18,152 nucleotides of DNA, from the IMG/VR virus record IMGVR_UViG_2645727555_000018, positions 1 to 18,152 of that record; one strand, written 5' to 3'. The notes beneath the pieces are model-generated. The model was not told where the DNA came from. It did no database searches and saw only the letters and a program-made list of their open reading frames with translations. The position numbers and the translations under genes were made by a program. Below are positions 5,308 through 11,144 of the stretch, in pieces; the first letter of the stretch is position 1, and every line of letters begins with the position of its first letter. This DNA is from a virus (lineage: Duplodnaviria > Heunggongvirae > Uroviricota > Caudoviricetes).

Positions 5308-7341
5308 TTACTTAACCTGGTGGCCAGGTTTAGCACCAGCATCCGGGCTTAACAGGAAGATATCTTTCCCGCCGGGGCCAGCAGCCATCACCATGCCTTC
5401 AGAGATACCGAAGCGCATTTTACGCGGAGCCAGGTTAGCCACCATAATGGTGTGACGACCAATCAGTGCCTGTGGATCTGGATAAGCGGAACGGATGCCT
5501 GAGAAGACATTACGCTTTTCACCACCGAGATCCAGCGTCAGGCGAAGCAGTTTGTCAGAACCTTCGACAAACTCCGCGTTTTCAATCAGCGCTACACGCA
5601 GGTCAACTTTGGCGAAGTCGTCAAAGGTGATGGTTTCCTGAATCGGGTCGTCAGCCAGTGGGCCAGTTACCGGTGCAGCTGTGGCTTTCACTTCTTCTTT
5701 GGATGCTTCCACCAGTGCTTCCACCTGTTTCATATCGATACGGTTATACAGTGCCTTGAACGGATTCACTTTATGGCCCAGCAGCGGTTGCTGGATACCA
5801 TCCCAGGTCAGTTCTGTATTCAGGAATGCTTCTGCACGTTCAGTCAGTTTCGGCAGTACCGGTTTCAGGTACGTCATCAGCACGCGGAACAGGTTAATGC
5901 CCATAGAGCAAATCGCCTGCAGATCGGCATCGCGTCCTTCCTGCTTCGCCACCACCCACGGAGCCTGTTCATCGACATAGCGGTTAGCCAGATCAGCCAG
6001 CGCCATGATTTCACGAATCGCTTTACCAAATTCGCGGCTTTCCCATGCTTCACCAATCACTTCAGCGGCATCAGTAAAGGTTTTGTACAGTTGCGGGTCA
6101 GCCAGTTCGCCTGCCAGCACACCGTCAAAACGCTTATTGATAAAGCCCGCGTTACGGGACGCCAGATTCACCACTTTGTTCACGATATCGGCATTCACGC
6201 GCTGAACGAAATCCTCCAGGTTGAGATCGATATCATCAATGCGCGAAGAGAGTTTCGCAGTGTAGTAGTAACGCAGGCTGTCAGCGTCAAAATGATTCAG
6301 CCAGGTGCTGGCTTTAATAAAGGTGCCGCGAGACTTGGACATCTTCGCACCGTTCACCGTCACATAGCCATGAACAAATAGGTTGGTCGGCTTGCGGAAG
6401 TTGCTGCCTTCCAGCATGGCAGGCCAGAACAGGCTGTGGAAGTAAACGATATCTTTACCGATGAAGTGGTACAGCTCGGCGGTGGAGTCTTTCTTCCAGT
6501 ATTCGTCGAAGCTGGTAGTGTCGCCGCGTTTGTCGCACAGATTCTTGAAGGAACCCATGTAGCCAATCGGTGCGTCCAGCCAGACGTAGAAATATTTGCC
6601 CGGTGCGTTCGGAATTTCAAAACCGAAGTACGGCGCATCGCGGGAGATATCCCACTGTTGCAGGCCAGATTCAAACCACTCCTGCATTTTGTTTGCCACC
6701 TGCTCCTGCAACGCACCGCTGCGGGTCCATGCCTGCAACATTTCGCTGAAAGAGGGCAGATCAAAGAAGAAGTGTTCGGAATCACGCATTACCGGCGTAG
6801 CACCAGAAACTACCGATTTCGGCTCGATCAGTTCAGTCGGGCTGTAAGTCGCGCCGCAGACTTCACAGTTATCGCCGTATTGATCTGGCGCTTTACATTT
6901 AGGACAGGTGCCTTTTACAAAACGGTCCGGCAGGAACATGCCTTTTTCCGGGTCGTACAACTGAGAGATAGTGCGGTTTTTAATAAAACCGTTCTCTTTC
7001 AGGCGAGTATAGATAAGCTCAGACAACTGACGGTTCTCTTCGCTGTGCGTCGAGTGATAGTTGTCATAGCTGATGTTAAAGCCTGCGAAATCAGTCTGGT
7101 GTTCCTGACTCATTTCGCCAATCATCTGCTCCGGTGTGATACCAAGTTGCTGTGCTTTCAGCATGATCGGCGTACCGTGGGCATCGTCGGCACAGATGAA
7201 ATTAACCTCGTGGCCGCGCATTCGCTGGTAACGAACCCAGACATCAGCCTGGATGTGCTCCAGCATATGGCCGAGGTGGATTGAGCCGTTAGCGTACGGC
7301 AGCGCGCACGTCACCAGAATTTTCTTCGCGACTTGGGTCAT
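5308..7341 (-). CDS. metG: methionine--tRNA ligase (677 aa)
   Basis: N-terminus [29 protein letters not shown] with the class I HIGH-type motif (HLGH), the KMSKS motif (GAKMSKSRG) and a zinc-knuckle CPKC...CEVC. ORF extends to 7470 but the conserved start is ATG(7341). Confidence 0.97.
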
Positions 7342-7498
7342 AGTAGGCATTACTTCTTTGTAGTGAAAAGGGGCTTGATAGTAACAAAATGGCCTTATGT
7401 CTGCCATGTGATAACAGCATTTCTCATAAATGATTAAATGTCGCAGCTGGAGTACACTACAAGGCGACAATTGCGCAAATTAAAATAAAGGAGACGGG
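7342..7498. promoter_or_regulatory. divergent metG / apbC promoter region
   Basis: 157-bp AT-rich intergenic spacer between the two divergent start codons; AAGGAG SD precedes the apbC ATG. Confidence 0.5.
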
Positions 7499-8599
7499 AT
7501 GAGCGAGTCCAAATCGCCGGATGCCCTGAGAGCAATGGTAGCCGGTACGCTGGCTAATTTTCAGCACCCAACCCTGAAACACAACCTGACTACGCTTAAA
7601 GCGTTACACCATGTTGCGTTGATGGATGACACACTGCATGTCGAACTAATCATGCCTTTCGTGTGGAATAAGCCTTTTGAAGACCTGAAAGAGCAATGTA
7701 GTGGTGATCTGCTCCGTATCACTGGCGCAAAGGCTATTGACTGGAAGCTGTCGTACAACATTGCCACGCTTAAGCGCGTCAAAAACCAACCAGGCATTAA
7801 TGGTGTTAAGAATATTATCGCCGTAAGCTCAGGCAAGGGCGGTGTAGGCAAATCGTCCACAGCAGTAAACTTGGCACTGGCTTTGGCTGCTGAAGGTGCG
7901 AAAGTTGGTATTTTGGATGCCGATATCTATGGTCCATCAATTCCAACCATGCTGGGCGCGGAAAACCAACGTCCAACCTCACCTGACGGTACTCACATGG
8001 CACCTATCATGTCTCATGGCCTGGCAACCAACTCTATTGGTTATCTGGTCACCGACGACAATGCAATGGTGTGGCGTGGACCGATGGCCAGCAAGGCGCT
8101 GATGCAGATGTTGCAGGAAACTCTATGGCCTGATCTGGACTATCTCGTTCTCGATATGCCGCCGGGCACTGGTGATATTCAGTTGACGCTGGCGCAGAAC
8201 ATTCCTGTAACTGGTGCGGTTGTGGTAACTACGCCGCAAGACATCGCGCTGATCGATGCGAAGAAAGGCATTGTGATGTTCGAAAAAGTCGAAGTGCCGG
8301 TACTAGGTATCGTCGAAAACATGAGTGTGCATATTTGCAGTAACTGCGATCATCACGAGCCAATTTTTGGCACCGGTGGCGCACAGAAACTGGCCGAGAA
8401 ATACAACACGCAGTTGTTAGGCCAAATGCCACTTCATATCTCTCTTCGTGAAGATCTGGATAACGGAACACCAACCGTTATTAGTCGTCCAGATAGCGAA
8501 TTTACGGCTATTTATCGTGACCTCGCAGATCGCGTTGCTGCCCAAATGTATTGGCAAGGTGAAGTAATACCTGGCGAAATCGCATTCCGCGCAGTGTGA
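7499..8599 (+). CDS. apbC: iron-sulfur cluster carrier ATPase ApbC/Mrp
   Basis: P-loop GKGGVGKS, CSNC motif, C-terminal ...GEVIPGEIAFRAV; full-length 366-aa ORF. Confidence 0.95.
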   Translation: MSESKSPDALRAMVAGTLANFQHPTLKHNLTTLKALHHVALMDDTLHVELIMPFVWNKPFEDLKEQCSGDLLRITGAKAIDWKLSYNIATLKRVKNQPGINGVKNIIAVSSGKGGVGKSSTAVNLALALAAEGAKVGILDADIYGPSIPTMLGAENQRPTSPDGTHMAPIMSHGLATNSIGYLVTDDNAMVWRGPMASKALMQMLQETLWPDLDYLVLDMPPGTGDIQLTLAQNIPVTGAVVVTTPQDIALIDAKKGIVMFEKVEVPVLGIVENMSVHICSNCDHHEPIFGTGGAQKLAEKYNTQLLGQMPLHISLREDLDNGTPTVISRPDSEFTAIYRDLADRVAAQMYWQGEVIPGEIAFRAV

Positions 8600-8636: not shown

Positions 8637-9026
8637 CTACATCACAGGACAATCATCAAACTCGCCACTTCTTGCGTCGTTGATAATGTGAGTGATCACA
8701 CCAAACACGGCATTGCTGCCCGTGCATCCATCATCATCCTTTGGCAATGCTTCCTTCTTACCAGTTCTTAAATCCTCCAGATGCTGACGTGGATACTTCC
8801 GGTATCTTTTTACGCGATATTCCCCATCCAGAGCACATACAAGAAGAGATCCATCAACAGGAGTCAGTGAGGAATCGACCACCAGCAATGCACCCTGCAA
8901 TATTCCCTCACGATGATGACTATCAGCCGCCCTCATGAAGTAGGTCGCTGAAGGATGTCTAATTATCTGCTGATCAAGAGAAATACGGCTCTCAGCATAA
9001 TCCGCCGCAGGAGAAGGGAAGCCCAT
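8637..9026 (-). CDS. UmuD'-like S24 peptidase-family protein encoded without the N-terminal arm (humD-like)
   Basis: Begins MGFPSPAADY, i.e. at the position of the UmuD Cys24-Gly25 autocleavage site. Ser (AADSH) and Lys (EYRVKRY) of the catalytic dyad are present. C-terminal VFGVITHII matches UmuD VFGVVIHVV. No umuC-like gene is adjacent. Confidence 0.85.
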   Translation of the reverse strand: MGFPSPAADYAESRISLDQQIIRHPSATYFMRAADSHHREGILQGALLVVDSSLTPVDGSLLVCALDGEYRVKRYRKYPRQHLEDLRTGKKEALPKDDDGCTGSNAVFGVITHIINDARSGEFDDCPVM

Positions 9027-9042
9027 AATACTCGCCTCTTAA

Positions 9043-9062
9043 TACTGTATATGCATACAGTA
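9043..9062. promoter_or_regulatory. LexA (SOS) box TACTGTATATGCATACAGTA
   Basis: Perfect CTGT-N8-ACAG palindrome 17 nt upstream of the umuD'-like ATG, next to an AAGAGG SD. Confidence 0.8.
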
Positions 9063-9116
9063 TATGTTGAAGCTATATATTTTTGAACTCTATCTCTTAA
9101 AAAAGATGTTAATAAG

Positions 9117-9359
9117 ATGCTAACTATTGAAAGGCATAAATATATACAATTCCAACAAACGTTATTTTTAACAAATTTTTACTTCCCATTGACTTTCCCA
9201 GACTCCTTGTCTGAACTAATGTCCGCGGAAACCACTTTTTCCTTTACGAGTTATCCACAAAGTTATGCACTTGCACATAGTCTCTATAAATCCTATCTTA
9301 ATTCGCAAGACACTGATGTTGCGGTATTGTGGGTACATTTGGTTAAAAACGGACATTAA
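9117..9359 (+). CDS. questionable small ORF (80 aa) in an AT-rich spacer
   Basis: Only plus-strand ORF outside apbC not overlapped by a minus-strand gene; followed directly by a terminator. No convincing SD, atypical composition. Confidence 0.2.
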   Translation: MLTIERHKYIQFQQTLFLTNFYFPLTFPDSLSELMSAETTFSFTSYPQSYALAHSLYKSYLNSQDTDVAVLWVHLVKNGH

Positions 9360-9360
9360 A

Positions 9361-9389
9361 AAAGCCCAGTTGACTAGGCTGGGCTTTTT
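9361..9389 (+). terminator. intrinsic terminator (plus strand)
   Basis: Stem AGCCCAG/CTGGGCT (9363-9369 / 9379-9385), A-run upstream and UUUUU downstream. Confidence 0.55.
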
Positions 9390-9390
9390 A

Positions 9391-9417
9391 AAAGGAAACA
9401 GAGTTTGCGCCTCTGTT
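9391..9417 (-). terminator. intrinsic terminator (minus strand), back-to-back with 9361..9389
   Basis: Stem AACAGAG/CTCTGTT (9397-9403 / 9411-9417) with loop TTTGCGC; the minus-strand reading is followed by UCCUUUUAAAAA. Confidence 0.4.
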
Positions 9418-9424
9418 CCTGAGC

Positions 9425-9619
9425 CATAAGTATCTGGCGACTGAGCTAAGATTAACCGAATGTACTGGATTCATCAAGAAACGTTGAGCCGTCATGCTAG
9501 GTAATAATGACCATTTACCAAACATCGTTGTTCTCAAAGAAGATTTAAGTCCAGGTTTTTGGTGACTCTAAAACCTTACCTTAACTCGAAATCGTGCCGT
9601 AAGTATCTGGCGACTACAG
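9425..9619. repeat. direct repeats in noncoding DNA: TAAGTATCTGGCGACT (9427-9442 and 9599-9614) and AAATCGTGCCG (9589-9599 and 9708-9718)
   Basis: Exact 16-bp and 11-bp direct repeats in an ORF-free stretch between two terminators. Confidence 0.5.
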
Positions 9620-9785
9620 ATATTGCAACTGCAAAGGCAAGCTCAAAGGTATTTGCAGCTAGGTGCGATAAAACTAAGTGAGGCCTATAGTGCTTAACTT
9701 ACTTTTCAAAATCGTGCCGCCTATGTTCGCAATCATCGAAGCGATCATTGAGTACGTCAACCAGCGCCCATAATGCTAGTTGTTA

Positions 9786-9816
9786 CCGGCCCCATCCAAA
9801 TGGGGCCATTTTATTG
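9786..9816 (+). terminator. intrinsic terminator-like hairpin
   Basis: Stem GGCCCCA/TGGGGCC (9788-9794 / 9801-9807) followed by AUUUUAUU on the plus strand. Confidence 0.45.
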
Positions 9817-9822
9817 TATTGA

Positions 9823-10494
9823 CTACATACTTTCTGATCTAATTGAGTTGTTCACTGCTCTGGCAATTTTCTCCCGCAATTGCTGCGCTCCGTGGTACTG
9901 AACCGCAATATCCCGCAACTCGTTCACCAGTTCTCTAATCTGGTGATCTTTAAGCTCATTATTTGGGTGATGGGTAACAACTCTGGTTAATTCACCCTTG
10001 TCTTTTGCTCTTACGTATGCAGCTCTTGTGCATTCGACCCATGTATTACCGCCTACATTAACTTCGTAGATTAGGCTGGACTTATCTGTCAATTCGGAAC
10101 AAATACGGGCCGTGGTCTGGCAACTAGAGCATTCGCAGTTATCGCGGAAACCGTGGTCTACTGGCTTCGGTTTCACATCATCAACTTTTTCTACCCTATT
10201 GGAATTTAAATACTTCGAAGCCTTGCTATGCCAATAGCTGGTTTTAGGATCTTGTCCATCCATCAAACGCCAGGCTTCAGCGATTAACTCATAACTAGTG
10301 ACTGTAGCTTCCTGCGCATCACCAATAAGTCGTGTAATCTCTCTTTCAAGCCGACCGCCTAACTCCGTTTTAGTGCAATGTTCTGACCAATCGCCAGCCT
10401 CAAGAAGCGCGAGAATGCTTAAAATATCGTCCAATAGAACGGTAGTATTATCGACTTCCTTCTGAAACTCACCGGCTACTGATTTATGCATCAT
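9823..10494 (-). CDS. hypothetical protein (223 aa), last gene of the coupled operon
   Basis: Its ATG overlaps the stop of the upstream gene (ATGATGA); long ORF. Confidence 0.6.
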   Translation of the reverse strand: MMHKSVAGEFQKEVDNTTVLLDDILSILALLEAGDWSEHCTKTELGGRLEREITRLIGDAQEATVTSYELIAEAWRLMDGQDPKTSYWHSKASKYLNSNRVEKVDDVKPKPVDHGFRDNCECSSCQTTARICSELTDKSSLIYEVNVGGNTWVECTRAAYVRAKDKGELTRVVTHHPNNELKDHQIRELVNELRDIAVQYHGAQQLREKIARAVNNSIRSESM

Positions 10495-11144
10495 TCGTCA
10501 TCCTCATCCGAGTCATCCTCATCACAGGATGAGAGTAGTGGGTTAGTCATTCGCCCTACTTGAGTGGCGTAGCCACGCCGACAGAGATTGCGCAGCACAC
10601 TGTATATTTCGAACATCTCGGTTCGTTCATCGCCAACATCAAGCTCAGATGCTATAGCGTGGCATTCAGTCGCGAGAGCCGATATTTTCTGAAATAACTC
10701 TGCATTATTCACTGTTCGACTCCTGCGGCGTTCTGGTAGTGGCATCCAGTGTGTGACATTGCTAATCAGACCATATTCATTAGTTTGAGGATGGTTGCCG
10801 TTATCGTCTCCGTATTTAAGACTCTCCATAAAGCCATAATGCCTATTACCATTAACGCTCACAAAGCCGTAATAAGCAGGTATAACGCCGATCTCACACG
10901 TAACCAGTAAAGGAAAACTAGTTCTCCAATTTAGCTCGCCAATTACAGGCATTCGCTCACTACAGCTTATCCAACCATCCTTAGATGCGGCTGTATTGGC
11001 ATAGGCCTTACGGTGCTTCTGTAGCTCTGCTGCAATCGCTCTCACGACTTCAACTGGTGCCCTTGCAGCAAACTCAATGTTGGTGATCAGCTCATTAAGA
11101 TATTTCTCGCTTGGGTAGCATTTCTTATTGTTAACGGTGGTCAT
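10491..11144 (-). CDS. hypothetical phage protein, DUF551-like, with acidic C-terminal tail
   Basis: Motifs GWISCSERMP and THWMPLPE resemble DUF551; C-terminus CDEDDSDEDDE; TAATG overlap with the upstream gene. Confidence 0.55.
   Translation of the reverse strand: MTTVNNKKCYPSEKYLNELITNIEFAARAPVEVVRAIAAELQKHRKAYANTAASKDGWISCSERMPVIGELNWRTSFPLLVTCEIGVIPAYYGFVSVNGNRHYGFMESLKYGDDNGNHPQTNEYGLISNVTHWMPLPERRRSRTVNNAELFQKISALATECHAIASELDVGDERTEMFEIYSVLRNLCRRGYATQVGRMTNPLLSSCDEDDSDEDDE

What the first reader, a model, noticed from the sequence alone, without database searches (positions are those of the whole stretch)
9361..9820. Structured noncoding stretch with direct repeats and opposed terminators
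The stretch holds two hairpin terminators facing opposite directions at 9361-9417 and a further terminator-like hairpin at 9786-9816. It also has exact direct repeats (TAAGTATCTGGCGACT twice; AAATCGTGCCG twice), an inverted repeat CTGCAAA/TTTGCAG (9629-9657), and only tiny ORFs, for example a 16-codon ORF at 9723-9773 that ends just before the hairpin. This could be a small-RNA locus, a long 3' UTR of the upstream operon, or an element boundary with duplicated att-like sequence.
Basis: seen in the sequence. Interest (0 to 1): 0.45.

Follow-up and report, generated by a model that had tools for sequence, protein, structure and literature searches.

The report
Hidden type I toxin-antitoxin module
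The "noncoding" stretch is most likely an unannotated gene pair: a 27-amino-acid hydrophobic peptide gene and a divergent small RNA that base-pairs with its messenger. This is the layout plasmids and phages use as toxin-antitoxin modules, and it matches no described family.

Summary
Window 9357-9816 lies on an SSU5/pECOH89-like E. coli phage-plasmid. RefSeq annotates nothing there and Rfam finds nothing at its thresholds.

- **Peptide gene.** The "16-codon ORF" is the end of a 27-codon ORF (GTG 9690, SD GAGG 9680-9683, stop 9771-9773). It encodes a hydrophobic peptide under purifying selection: variable columns by codon position are 6/1/13.
- **Small RNA.** The hairpins at 9359-9420 are stem-loop 2 and the terminator of an ~86-nt minus-strand RNA (9442 to ~9357). 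Its promoter is conserved (TTGATG-17-TAATCT).
- **Comparative support.** Across 11 sequence types from Escherichia, Citrobacter, Enterobacter and Klebsiella elements and metagenomes, the two copies co-vary (8 of 24 pairs change on both sides). Every one-sided difference within nt 1-20 is a G·U wobble in that strand assignment.

E. coli tisB/istR-1 shows the same DNA signature. The architecture matches the TisB/IstR-1, ZorO/OrzO class, but the peptide, RNA and DNA match no known family. Transcription and toxicity are untested. The att-site and 3'-UTR readings are not supported.

The parts
9357..9442 (-). Predicted antitoxin-like small RNA (~86 nt). It has a 5' pairing region, two stem-loops and an intrinsic terminator.
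   Evidence: The window sequence folds at -32.9 kcal/mol, z = -4.4, with 0 of 200 shuffles as stable. The consensus fold of 12 distinct homologs has 3 helices, 96.5% of cells paired and 5 pairs changed on both sides; 0 of 500 shuffles reach the observed covariation score. The only Rfam signal is a sub-threshold RNAI-like match (24 bits against gathering 47). The 5' end is inferred from the promoter geometry, not measured.
9449..9477 (-). Promoter of the small RNA: -35 TTGATG (9477-9472), 17-nt spacer, -10 TAATCT (9454-9449), 6-nt discriminator, +1 at 9442.
   Evidence: In the 16 correctly anchored of 17 distinct sequence types, the hexamers TTGA(A/T)G (TTGTAG in one) and TAA(G/T)(C/A)T keep a fixed 17-nt spacing while the spacer and discriminator sequences vary. 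Complementarity to the target begins at the inferred +1.
9359..9392 (.). Terminator hairpin. It ends the minus-strand small RNA and, in this window, also the upstream plus-strand 80-aa ORF.
   Evidence: Terminator scan on the minus strand at 9380-9363 plus T-run. Compensatory A-U to G-C changes. In relatives the stem uses G·U pairs that exist only in the minus-strand RNA, and the plus-strand T-run is lost.
9393..9420 (-).
   Evidence: Eight pairs, three of them with changes on both sides. There is no usable T-run on the plus strand.
9423..9442 (-). Repeat copy 1: nt 1-20 of the small RNA, the pairing region (5'-AGUCGCCAGAUACUUAUGGC).
9500..9552 (+). Region expected to hold the peptide-mRNA promoter and start site (not resolved).
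   Evidence: Weak sigma-70-like candidates have a -10 ending 3-19 nt upstream of hairpin A in most relatives. The window's best candidate is poor (TTACCA-18-GAAGAT). This part is inferred only.
9553..9576 (+). 5' hairpin A of the peptide mRNA leader (AGGUUUU/AAAACCU), with the invariant loop motif UUGGUGA.
   Evidence: Consensus fold with U-A to C-G and A-U to G-C double changes, plus U·G wobbles possible only in plus-strand RNA.
9592..9615 (+). [quoted passage not shown]
   Evidence: Duplex test on 11 distinct types. nt 1-20 are always paired and 8 of 24 pairs change on both sides. All one-sided changes within nt 1-20 are G·U (one more, a U·G, lies at nt 22), and 0 of 500 shuffles reach the observed values. 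This is the best trans site for the RNA's first 30 nt in the whole window (-38.5 against about -29 kcal/mol background).
9602..9624 (+). Target hairpin (AGUAUCUG / CAGAUAUU). Its loop GCGACUA is complementary to the first bases of the small RNA.
   Evidence: 92% of cells paired and 3 of 8 pairs changed on both sides, against 17-59% paired in slid controls.
9592..9668 (+). Outer leader stem UCGUGCC (9592-9598) / GGUGCGA (9662-9668). It encloses the target hairpin and the invariant hairpin.
   Evidence: Consensus fold. There are only one-sided (wobble) changes, so support is moderate.
9629..9658 (+). Hairpin CUGCAAA-(16 nt, AAAGG/AAGG-rich loop)-UUUGCAG, with an invariant stem. Its role is unknown; a standby or processing site is a guess.
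   Evidence: The stem is identical in the five loci found by similarity search. The pattern then retrieved 2 + 26 + 15 further loci. Because relatives were retrieved with this pattern, invariance among them is partly by construction, and no covariation is possible.
9680..9683 (+). Shine-Dalgarno GAGG of the peptide ORF, 6 nt before the start codon.
   Evidence: An SD-like motif (GAGG/AAGG/GGAG) precedes the ORF in every locus.
9690..9773 (+). 27-codon ORF (GTG start): MLNLLFKIVPPMFAIIEAIIEYVNQRP. This is the candidate toxin.
   Evidence: Most relatives start with ATG at the same position. There are six distinct nucleotide versions; variable columns by codon position are 6/1/13 and replacements are mostly conservative. 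tblastn finds it in 94 plasmids, 93 at 80% or more of its length, and never annotated. GRAVY is 0.86, and 1.46 over the first 22 residues.
9788..9816 (+). Intrinsic terminator of the peptide mRNA (GGCCCCAU/AUGGGGCC plus a U-run). It is unidirectional.
   Evidence: Relatives have different stem sequences at the same place after the last small ORF.

Best explanation
Window 9357-9816 is a self-contained, unannotated type I toxin-antitoxin-like module carried by an SSU5/pECOH89-like phage-plasmid.

A plus-strand mRNA starts somewhere around 9500-9552 and ends at the 9788-9816 terminator. It has a structured leader of about 140 nt and encodes a 27-aa hydrophobic peptide (9690-9773). A divergent minus-strand small RNA of about 86 nt (9442 to ~9357) comes from a conserved promoter.

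The first 20-24 nt of the small RNA are complementary to leader positions 9592-9615. Contact probably starts between the RNA's unpaired 5' end (AGUCGC) and the loop (GCGACU) of the target hairpin, then extends to a 20-bp duplex.

By analogy with IstR-1/tisB and OrzO/zorO, the duplex would block ribosome loading far upstream of the start codon, or trigger RNase III cleavage, or both. That would keep the peptide off while the element is present. If the RNA is the less stable partner, loss of the element would release peptide synthesis.

Shown here (computationally): the ORF and its selective constraint, the RNA gene's promoter, structure and terminator, the co-varying complementarity, and the cassette-like distribution. 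Inferred: transcription itself, the mRNA start, the mode of repression, the toxicity of the peptide, and the biological role (maintenance, or defence).
For: - **Context.** The window is a ~110-kb phage-plasmid of the SSU5/pECOH89/Cyrano type. The stretch has no annotation in any record.
- **ORF.** Every locus has a conserved SD plus a 26-28-codon hydrophobic ORF. The bias to third codon positions is 6/1/13.
- **Small RNA.** It has three helices with covariation and a window fold z-score of -4.4. Promoter hexamers are conserved at fixed spacing while the spacers vary.
- **Pairing.** nt 1-20 are paired in all 11 sequence types, 8 pairs change on both sides, and 0 of 500 shuffles reach the observed values. 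In a Klebsiella IncFIB plasmid six repeat positions differ from the other relatives, identically in both copies, and the target hairpin is kept.
- **Strand direction.** Within the 20-nt core, every difference between the two copies is A>G or C>T from copy 1 to copy 2. These are G·U wobbles only if the RNA comes from the minus strand of copy 1 and the target from the plus strand of copy 2.
- **Target hairpin.** It co-varies with the repeats.
- **Specificity.** 9593-9615 is the best trans site in the 18-kb window, by about 10 kcal/mol.
- **Positive control.** E. coli K-12 tisB/istR-1 shows the same DNA signature: a 22-nt direct repeat between the 5' end of the divergent sRNA gene and the toxin leader, with one A>G difference.
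- **Geometry.** It matches zorO/orzO: 18 nt at the sRNA 5' end, with the target 73-91 nt upstream of the start (PMC3919570). It also matches the class definition used by T1TAdb: asRNA 5' of the mRNA, non-overlapping, less than 300 nt apart, at least 15 nt of pairing (PMC8594479).
- **Mobility.** The module recurs as a unit between unrelated flanking genes.
Against: - There are no transcription data, so both RNA ends and the mRNA promoter are predictions. The window's plus-strand promoter candidates are weak.
- Toxicity is untested. The peptide is less hydrophobic than TisB (GRAVY 0.86 against 1.62) and has a central Pro-Pro.
- There are no matches to any toxin family in Pfam, NCBIfam, PHROGs or PADLOC, nor to any antitoxin RNA family in Rfam. 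Membership of the class therefore rests on architecture alone.
- Identity between two direct repeats could in principle be kept by gene conversion rather than by selection for pairing. The wobble-direction argument rests on roughly six independent events.
- A proposed SD-sequestering pairing showed no covariation.
Confidence: 0.7

Rival explanations
1. Same two genes and same RNA-RNA pairing, but the peptide is not a toxin. It would be a small membrane protein with a phage or plasmid accessory role (for example modulating lysis, exclusion or a transporter) whose synthesis is tuned by the small RNA.
For: The peptide matches no toxin family. It is only moderately hydrophobic and has a Pro-Pro kink. 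Many sRNA-regulated small membrane proteins are not toxic (general knowledge).
Against: The full architecture is that of the known toxin loci: a divergent constitutive-looking sRNA, a 20-nt 5'-end pairing far upstream in a long structured leader, tandem paralogous peptide ORFs in relatives, cassette-like mobility and a location on plasmids. Other toxin-antitoxin modules are common on these elements (PMC9928086).
Confidence: 0.17
2. Mechanistic variant. The small RNA acts by blocking translation of a leader ORF (TTG 9559 to TGA 9679-9681). That ORF ends on the peptide's Shine-Dalgarno and would be translationally coupled to it, as in mok/hok, rather than acting through a standby site.
For: A 40-codon frame is open across the leader and stops inside AAGUGAGG, overlapping the SD. 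In many relatives an in-frame ATG lies inside the target site (AAUGUAUC). An AGG lies upstream of the TTG/GTG in the invariant motif of hairpin A.
Against: The frame is broken by 1-nt indels in L004, L006, L034 and L045. The TTG/GTG start sits in a hairpin loop with a poor SD. Conservation there is explained by RNA structure, and there is no third-position pattern.
Confidence: 0.12
3. The direct repeats act at the DNA level, as att-like recombination junctions, iterons or operator sites for a DNA-binding protein. The hairpins would be ordinary terminators between convergent and divergent genes.
For: There are exact 16-20-nt direct repeats. In one Citrobacter plasmid the module lies about 460 nt (the repeats about 800 nt) from a RepB gene. 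Short 10-bp repeats occur nearby in some relatives.
Against: There is no further copy in the window. One copy begins at the +1 of a conserved promoter. Differences between copies are only strand-specific wobble-compatible transitions. A third sequence, the 3' arm of the target hairpin, co-varies with the repeats, which only RNA folding explains. Flanking genes differ between hosts, so the repeats do not mark an insertion boundary.
Confidence: 0.04
4. Functionless spacer, or a long 3' UTR of the upstream gene. The conservation would reflect only recent common descent of the plasmids.
For: Most E. coli copies are 93-100% identical, so conservation within that clade alone says little.
Against: The module is still recognisable in elements whose 657-nt extracts are only 49-63% identical to the window's. 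Synonymous drift is confined to the ORF, stems carry compensatory changes, and a terminator separates the module from the upstream ORF.
Confidence: 0.03

Closest known systems
TisB/IstR-1 (E. coli chromosomal type I toxin-antitoxin)
   Same: The small RNA is divergent and does not overlap the toxin mRNA. Its 5' end pairs with about 21 nt far upstream of the start codon in a long structured toxin leader. The DNA signature is the same: a ~20-nt direct repeat with one A>G (wobble) difference. The peptide is small, helical and hydrophobic with a few charged residues.
   Different: There is no sequence relationship: BLASTP finds no alignment, and Pfam TisB_toxin does not match although it detects real TisB. 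No IstR match in Rfam. No LexA box in the module; the only one in the window is at 9043-9062. It sits on phage-plasmids and plasmids, not the chromosome. Some relatives carry two tandem peptide ORFs.
ZorO/OrzO (E. coli O157 type I toxin-antitoxin)
   Same: Near-identical geometry. The sRNA is divergent and its 5' end carries the complementarity: 18 nt in OrzO, 20 nt here. [quoted passage not shown] Peptides are of similar size: 29 aa in ZorO, 27 aa here. Conserved leader elements of unknown role occur in both (PMC11264685).
   Different: blastn at E<=0.01 against 5,426 complete E. coli genomes hits no chromosomal type I locus. There are no NCBIfam or Pfam matches. The leader structure is different.
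ShoB/OhsC and DinQ/AgrB
   Same: [quoted passage not shown]
   Different: No sequence or Rfam match. No LexA control signal, unlike dinQ (the dinQ part is from general knowledge).
Hok/Sok (plasmid R1 post-segregational killing)
   Same: Plasmid-borne. The single-stranded 5' end of the antisense RNA attacks a target hairpin loop. The likely role is stable inheritance. A possible leader ORF ends on the toxin's ribosome-binding site.
   Different: The antisense gene does not overlap the mRNA. The peptide is half the size and unrelated. The leader ORF frame is not conserved. No fold-back 5'-3' structure was found.
RNAI of ColE1-type plasmids (Rfam RF00106)
   Same: An antisense RNA of about 90 nt with three stem-loops. 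This is the best Rfam near-hit.
   Different: The score is 24 bits against a gathering score of 47, E = 0.054. No replication primer or origin lies opposite. The resemblance is only the generic three-hairpin shape.

Membership tests
Type I toxin-antitoxin systems (general) | Small (<60 aa), usually hydrophobic protein-coding gene | tested here: met
   27-codon ORF 9690-9773 with an SD. It is conserved in all loci and under purifying selection. GRAVY 0.86, and 1.46 over residues 1-22.
Type I toxin-antitoxin systems (general) | Adjacent small RNA with at least 15 nt complementarity to the toxin mRNA | tested here: met
   20-24 nt of complementarity between the predicted RNA's 5' end and 9592-9615. 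The pairing co-varies across 11 sequence types. This is computational only; the RNAs themselves have not been observed.
Type I toxin-antitoxin systems (general) | Overproduction of the protein is toxic | not testable with these tools
   Needs an expression experiment.
Type I toxin-antitoxin systems (general) | The RNA represses toxin synthesis and rescues cells | not testable with these tools
   Needs rescue and compensatory-mutation experiments.
Non-overlapping divergent class (TisB/IstR-1, Zor/Orz, ShoB/OhsC, DinQ/AgrB) | Antisense RNA gene lies 5' of the mRNA, on the opposite strand, without overlap and within 300 nt (PMC8594479) | tested here: met
   The RNA gene is at 9442-9357 (-) and the target at 9592-9615 (+), 154 nt from the RNA's +1. 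The promoter layout is and the class definition.
TisB/IstR-1 | Toxin belongs to TisB_toxin (PF13939) | tested here: not met
   No Pfam or NCBIfam hit at E<=10. Real TisB scores E = 2.5e-9 as a positive control. BLASTP finds no alignment.
TisB/IstR-1 | LexA box controlling the toxin promoter | tested here: not met
   The only LexA-box match in the window is 9043-9062, outside the module.
TisB/IstR-1, Zor/Orz, ShoB/OhsC, DinQ/AgrB, Hok/Sok, Ldr/Rdl, Ibs/Sib | Antitoxin RNA matches the family's Rfam model | tested here: not met
   No match at gathering thresholds in the window. No antitoxin family appears even at E<=10 in 9000-10000.
Zor/Orz and other chromosomal E. coli type I loci | Nucleotide similarity to the chromosomal loci | tested here: not met
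   blastn (word 11, E<=0.01) of 9361-9822 against 5,426 genomes hits only 115 genomes, all carrying this same element, and none of the chromosomal loci.
Hok/Sok | Overlapping leader ORF (mok) needed for toxin translation and targeted by the antisense RNA | tested here: inconclusive
   A 40-codon leader frame ends on the SD, but the frame is broken in 4 sequence types.
Hok/Sok | Hok-family toxin; antisense RNA encoded opposite the mRNA leader (cis) | tested here: not met
   No Pfam hit. The RNA gene does not overlap the mRNA leader it targets.
RNAI (RF00106) | Score at or above the Rfam gathering threshold | tested here: not met
   24 bits against 47.
Attachment-site / element boundary | Repeat copies flank an inserted segment, with a further junction copy elsewhere | tested here: not met
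   There are only two copies, 173 nt apart, inside one conserved cassette. The cassette recurs whole in different contexts.

The most novel reading that the evidence does not exclude
This is a previously undescribed family of type I toxin-antitoxin modules. The toxins come in two paralogous peptide types, sometimes in tandem on one mRNA, and are controlled by one divergent small RNA. The leader contains an invariant hairpin of unknown function. The module moves as a cassette among SSU5-like phage-plasmids, other enterobacterial phage-plasmids and conjugative IncF plasmids. It may be the unrecognised addiction (or anti-phage) module that helps ESBL-carrying phage-plasmids such as pECOH89 persist.
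Probability: 0.55. Interest if true: 0.55.

Novelty: new member of a known kind. Interest (0 to 1): 0.45.

Why it matters
SSU5-like phage-plasmids are common in clinical and animal E. coli: 114 of 5,426 complete genomes carry this module at full length. They include carriers of CTX-M-15 (pECOH89) and the plasmid of the Crohn's-associated strain LF82. What stabilises them is only partly known.

An unannotated RNA-controlled toxin module would be a candidate maintenance or defence function. It would also add a family to the short list of enterobacterial type I systems with a trans-acting, divergently encoded antitoxin. Natural covariation already maps the pairing rules, and the invariant leader hairpin could inform the standby-ribosome or processing question.

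Practically, current annotation pipelines miss both genes in every record examined.

Tried and rejected
- **Rfam.** Nothing at gathering thresholds across the whole window. At E<=10 on 9000-10000 there were only sub-threshold generic hairpin hits, the best being RNAI at 24/47 bits.
- **tRNA/tmRNA scan.** Nothing.
- **Peptide family searches.** Pfam, NCBIfam, PHROGs and PADLOC gave no hits, apart from one insignificant PHROG at E = 0.16.
- **Large protein database.** It could not be searched because the peptide is below the 40-aa minimum.
- **LexA control.** No box in the module.
- **Peptide-mRNA promoter.** A simple sigma-70 scoring gave only weak candidates of inconsistent quality, so it was left unresolved.
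- **Anti-SD pairing CCUUAC (9574-9579) with GUGAGG (9678-9683).** 86% of cells pair, but there is no covariation signal (419 of 500 shuffles as good), so it is inconclusive.
- **Second short repeat (AAATCGTGCCG).** Copy 1 is one arm of a leader stem. Copy 2 is coding (K-I-V-P) and drifts at third positions in relatives. The repeat as such is therefore probably not functional, and may be a vestige of duplication.
- **Leader ORF.** The frame is not conserved.
- **Literature.** Full-text searches for the peptide sequences and for type I systems on phage-plasmids found no description. The supplement of Fozo et al. 2010, which lists more than 2,000 untested candidate ORFs, is not held, so prior computational listing cannot be excluded.
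- **LF82/Cyrano paper.** It lists expressed TA genes but leaves this interval unannotated.
Full report
**Context**

The 18-kb window is part of an E. coli phage-plasmid of about 110 kb, of the SSU5/pECOH89/Cyrano (pLF82) type. The query 9117-10000, which covers the finding region and its flanks, is 99.7% identical to several complete E. coli plasmids. It is 90-95% identical to phages CMS-2020a and Cyrano.

The neighbourhood carries host-like metG and apbC, an S24 peptidase gene, and a long minus-strand operon of small phage-type genes. In every annotated record examined, the interval corresponding to 9361-9822 carries no feature. Rfam has no match at its thresholds and there is no tRNA or tmRNA.

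**Checking the observation**

- The 16-nt repeat is exact, at 9427-9442 and 9600-9615, and unlikely by chance: expected 0.07 matches, and 1 of 200 shuffles reached two. It extends to 20 nt.
- The 11-nt repeat, at 9589-9599 and 9709-9719, is real but not significant alone (13 of 200 shuffles).
- The hairpins are real. However, the second hairpin of the "opposed terminator pair" is not a terminator.
- The "16-codon ORF" is a fragment of a longer conserved ORF (see below).

**Relatives**

- blastn against plasmids found full-length copies in Escherichia and Shigella. It also found partial matches of 67-82% identity in intergenic gaps of 85-99-kb non-mobilizable Citrobacter and Enterobacter plasmids.
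- A first alignment showed that the whole unit is conserved, from the left terminator to the right one.
- I used the conserved hairpin pattern (AACTGCAAAGG...TTTGCAGC) to scan the collections. It retrieved 2 genome, 26 viral and 15 metagenome loci.
- tblastn with the peptide found a Klebsiella IncFIB conjugative plasmid, where the module sits next to an IS3 element.
- Flanking genes differ between these hosts: an 80-aa ORF here, and RepB, DUF6884, a DNA-binding protein or an IS3 transposase elsewhere. The unit therefore behaves as a mobile cassette.

**The protein-coding part**

Every locus has a 26-28-codon ORF preceded by GAGG, AAGG or GGAG. In the window it starts at GTG 9690, where most relatives have ATG at the same position. 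It ends at TAA 9771-9773 and encodes MLNLLFKIVPPMFAIIEAIIEYVNQRP.

Among six distinct nucleotide versions of the 27-codon type, variable columns fall 6/1/13 on codon positions 1/2/3. Replacements are conservative (L/V, I/V, F/V, A/V, I/L), apart from one E/K change. That is the signature of a translated gene.

Relatives encode two paralogous peptide types. Type A reads ...KLAHPVAVIIMTLLGYWKDR, and type B reads MV.LL.K..PP....I.DY.NKR. Some loci carry both in tandem, each with its own SD. The window has only type B.

The peptides match nothing in Pfam, NCBIfam, PHROGs or PADLOC. Real TisB, of similar length, is detected by Pfam at E = 2.5e-9, so the negative result is meaningful.

**The small RNA**

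On the minus strand, a promoter TTGATG (9477-9472), a 17-nt spacer, and TAATCT (9454-9449) are followed 6 nt later by position 9442. In the 16 correctly anchored of 17 distinct sequence types, the two hexamers and their spacing are conserved while the spacer and discriminator vary.

From 9442 the RNA would run about 86 nt to the U-run after the 9389-9359 hairpin. The window sequence folds into three hairpins at -32.9 kcal/mol, z = -4.4.

The consensus fold of 12 distinct homologs keeps 96.5% of cells paired, and five pairs change on both sides. No shuffle of 500 reaches the observed covariation score, and the slid controls collapse to 31-63% paired.

In relatives the terminator stem uses G·U pairs that exist only in the minus-strand RNA, and the plus-strand T-run disappears. 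The hairpin's primary job is therefore to end the minus-strand RNA.

**What the direct repeat is**

Copy 1 (9423-9442) is the first 20 nt of this RNA. Copy 2 (9596-9615) lies on the plus strand, 75-94 nt upstream of the peptide start codon. A direct repeat in DNA means that an RNA read from the opposite strand of one copy is complementary to an RNA read from the other.

I joined RNA nt 1-24 to the target for 11 distinct sequence types and counted pairs:

- nt 1-20 are paired in every type.
- 8 of 24 pairs show changes on both sides.
- All one-sided changes within nt 1-20 are G·U.
- Mismatches appear only at nt 21-23.
- No shuffle of 500 reaches the observed values, and the slid controls give 29-35% pairing.

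Independent double changes are:

- AAT to TAA in the E. coli clade.
- T to C in L005.
- GA to AG in L004 and L006.
- G to T in L042.
- Six positions at once in the Klebsiella plasmid.

The direction of the one-sided differences is informative. They are always A>G or C>T going from copy 1 to copy 2. These are tolerated as wobbles only if the small RNA comes from the minus strand of copy 1 and the target RNA from the plus strand of copy 2. The opposite assignment, or a DNA-binding-site model, predicts no such asymmetry.

The RNA's first 30 nt have no comparable partner anywhere else in the window: -38.5 kcal/mol at 9593, against about -29 for the best background site.

**The mRNA leader**

The consensus fold of 12 leaders gives:

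- A 5' hairpin (9553-9576) with double changes and plus-strand-only wobbles.
- An outer stem, UCGUGCC (9592-9598) with GGUGCGA (9662-9668).
- Within the outer stem, the target hairpin (9602-9609 / 9617-9624, loop GCGACUA).
- Also within it, the hairpin with the invariant stem (9629-9658).

The target hairpin co-varies with the repeats: 3 of 8 pairs change on both sides. In the Klebsiella variant it is rebuilt from the palindrome GUUAAC. Its loop is complementary to the extreme 5' end of the small RNA. That is the classic arrangement for fast antisense recognition.

A plus-strand terminator (9788-9816) follows the ORF, and relatives have other stems at the same place. The mRNA promoter is not resolved. 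Most relatives have a plausible sigma-70 site whose -10 ends 3-19 nt before the 5' hairpin, but the window's candidates are weak.

**Comparison with known systems**

As a control, I ran the same repeat finder on E. coli K-12 tisB/istR-1. It returns a 22-nt direct repeat between the 5' end of the istR-1 gene and the tisB leader, with a single A>G difference. That is the same signature.

For zorO/orzO, the published geometry is a divergent sRNA with 18 nt at its 5' end, a target 73-91 nt upstream of the start, a ~180-nt leader and a 29-aa toxin (PMC3919570). This is almost superimposable on the present locus.

T1TAdb defines this organisational class for ShoB/OhsC, TisB/IstR-1, Zor/Orz and DinQ/AgrB (PMC8594479).

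Membership in any of those families fails on every sequence test:

- No protein-family hit.
- No BLASTP alignment to TisB.
- No Rfam antitoxin match.
- No blastn similarity to any chromosomal locus in 5,426 E. coli genomes.
- No LexA box; the only one in the window is at 9043-9062.

Full-text searches for the peptide sequences and for type I systems on phage-plasmids found nothing. The large untested candidate list of Fozo et al. 2010 could not be inspected.

**Interpretation**

The best explanation is a type I toxin-antitoxin-like module of a new sequence family. It works like tisB/istR-1 and zorO/orzO: a small RNA pairs by its 5' end with a hairpin in the leader, far upstream of the ribosome-binding site. 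That would prevent ribosome loading, or trigger cleavage, or both.

The steps shown are all comparative or computational. Transcription, toxicity, the mode of repression and the biological role are inferred.

The main rival keeps the same genes but denies toxicity. A mok-like leader-ORF mechanism is possible but weakly supported. DNA-level (att, iteron) and "mere spacer or 3' UTR" readings are contradicted by the strand-specific wobble pattern, the three-way covariation, and the cassette distribution.

**Verdict**

The finding is a probable new member of a well-known kind of system. It is of moderate interest because it is unannotated in every record examined (114 of 5,426 complete E. coli genomes carry it at full length) and sits on clinically relevant phage-plasmids.

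Noticed in passing
window 9043-9062: There is a near-consensus LexA box, TACTGTATATGCATACAGTA (2 mismatches to the 20-mer, none expected by chance). It lies between the divergent S24-peptidase (HumD/UmuD-like) gene 8637-9026 (-) and the 80-aa ORF 9117-9359 (+). This pair is probably SOS-regulated.
   Followed up: partly
window 9158-9275: Part of the 80-aa ORF is about 89% identical to the chromosomal ypaB region in 5,423 of 5,426 complete E. coli genomes. The start of the query (about 9117-9275) is also about 87% identical to an unannotated or upf91.x region of phages P1, P7 and SJ46. The ORF has no Pfam match.
   Followed up: partly
window 5308-8599: The phage-plasmid carries host-like metG (methionyl-tRNA synthetase, minus strand) and apbC/mrp (plus strand), arranged divergently.
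   Followed up: no
window 9559-9681: A 40-codon open frame in the peptide-mRNA leader runs from TTG 9559 to TGA 9679-9681, overlapping the SD. The frame is kept in most sequence types but broken by 1-nt indels in L004, L006, L034 and L045. It could be a mok/tisA-like leader ORF or a by-product of RNA conservation.
   Followed up: partly
window 9629-9658 and 9560-9566: The hairpin stem CUGCAAA/UUUGCAG, with an AAAGG/AAGG-rich loop, is identical in all retrieved relatives (retrieval used this pattern). The loop motif UUGGUGA of the 5' hairpin is nearly invariant (UUUGUGA in L006). This holds even where the extracts are about 50% identical overall. Their function is unknown.
   Followed up: partly
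L003, L004, L006, L017, L034 (e.g. L034 2392-2581): Relatives carry two tandem small hydrophobic ORFs (types A and B) on the same predicted mRNA, each with its own SD. L002 and L005 have only type A. The window has only type B.
   Followed up: partly
L018, L025 and L003, upstream of the 5' hairpin (alignment columns ~190-230): There are two to three direct ~10-bp repeats (GGTTTAGAAC-like) just upstream of the putative peptide-mRNA promoter. They may be an operator for an unknown regulator. The window does not have them in this form.
   Followed up: no
window 9580-9599 versus 9692-9719: The leader segment CTTAACTCGAAATCGTGCCG resembles the 5' part of the ORF (CTTAACT...AAAATCGTGCCG). This suggests that the leader, and perhaps the small-RNA gene, arose by duplication of a peptide-coding unit.
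   Followed up: no
window 9788-9823, minus strand: The long minus-strand operon ends at 9823, but on that strand the 9807-9788 hairpin has no U-run. Operon transcription could therefore read through, antisense to the whole peptide gene, as far as the 9380-9357 terminator.
   Followed up: no
L007 (JAEWTL010000044.1): A contig labelled 'MAG: Bacillota bacterium' is 91% identical to this E. coli phage-plasmid region. It is probably a mis-binned contig.
   Followed up: no
window 10491-11144: The window has one 217-aa ORF with a DUF551 match. The 99.7%-identical RefSeq plasmid annotates a 222-nt gene plus a DUF551 pseudogene fragment over the corresponding interval. The gene models disagree.
   Followed up: no
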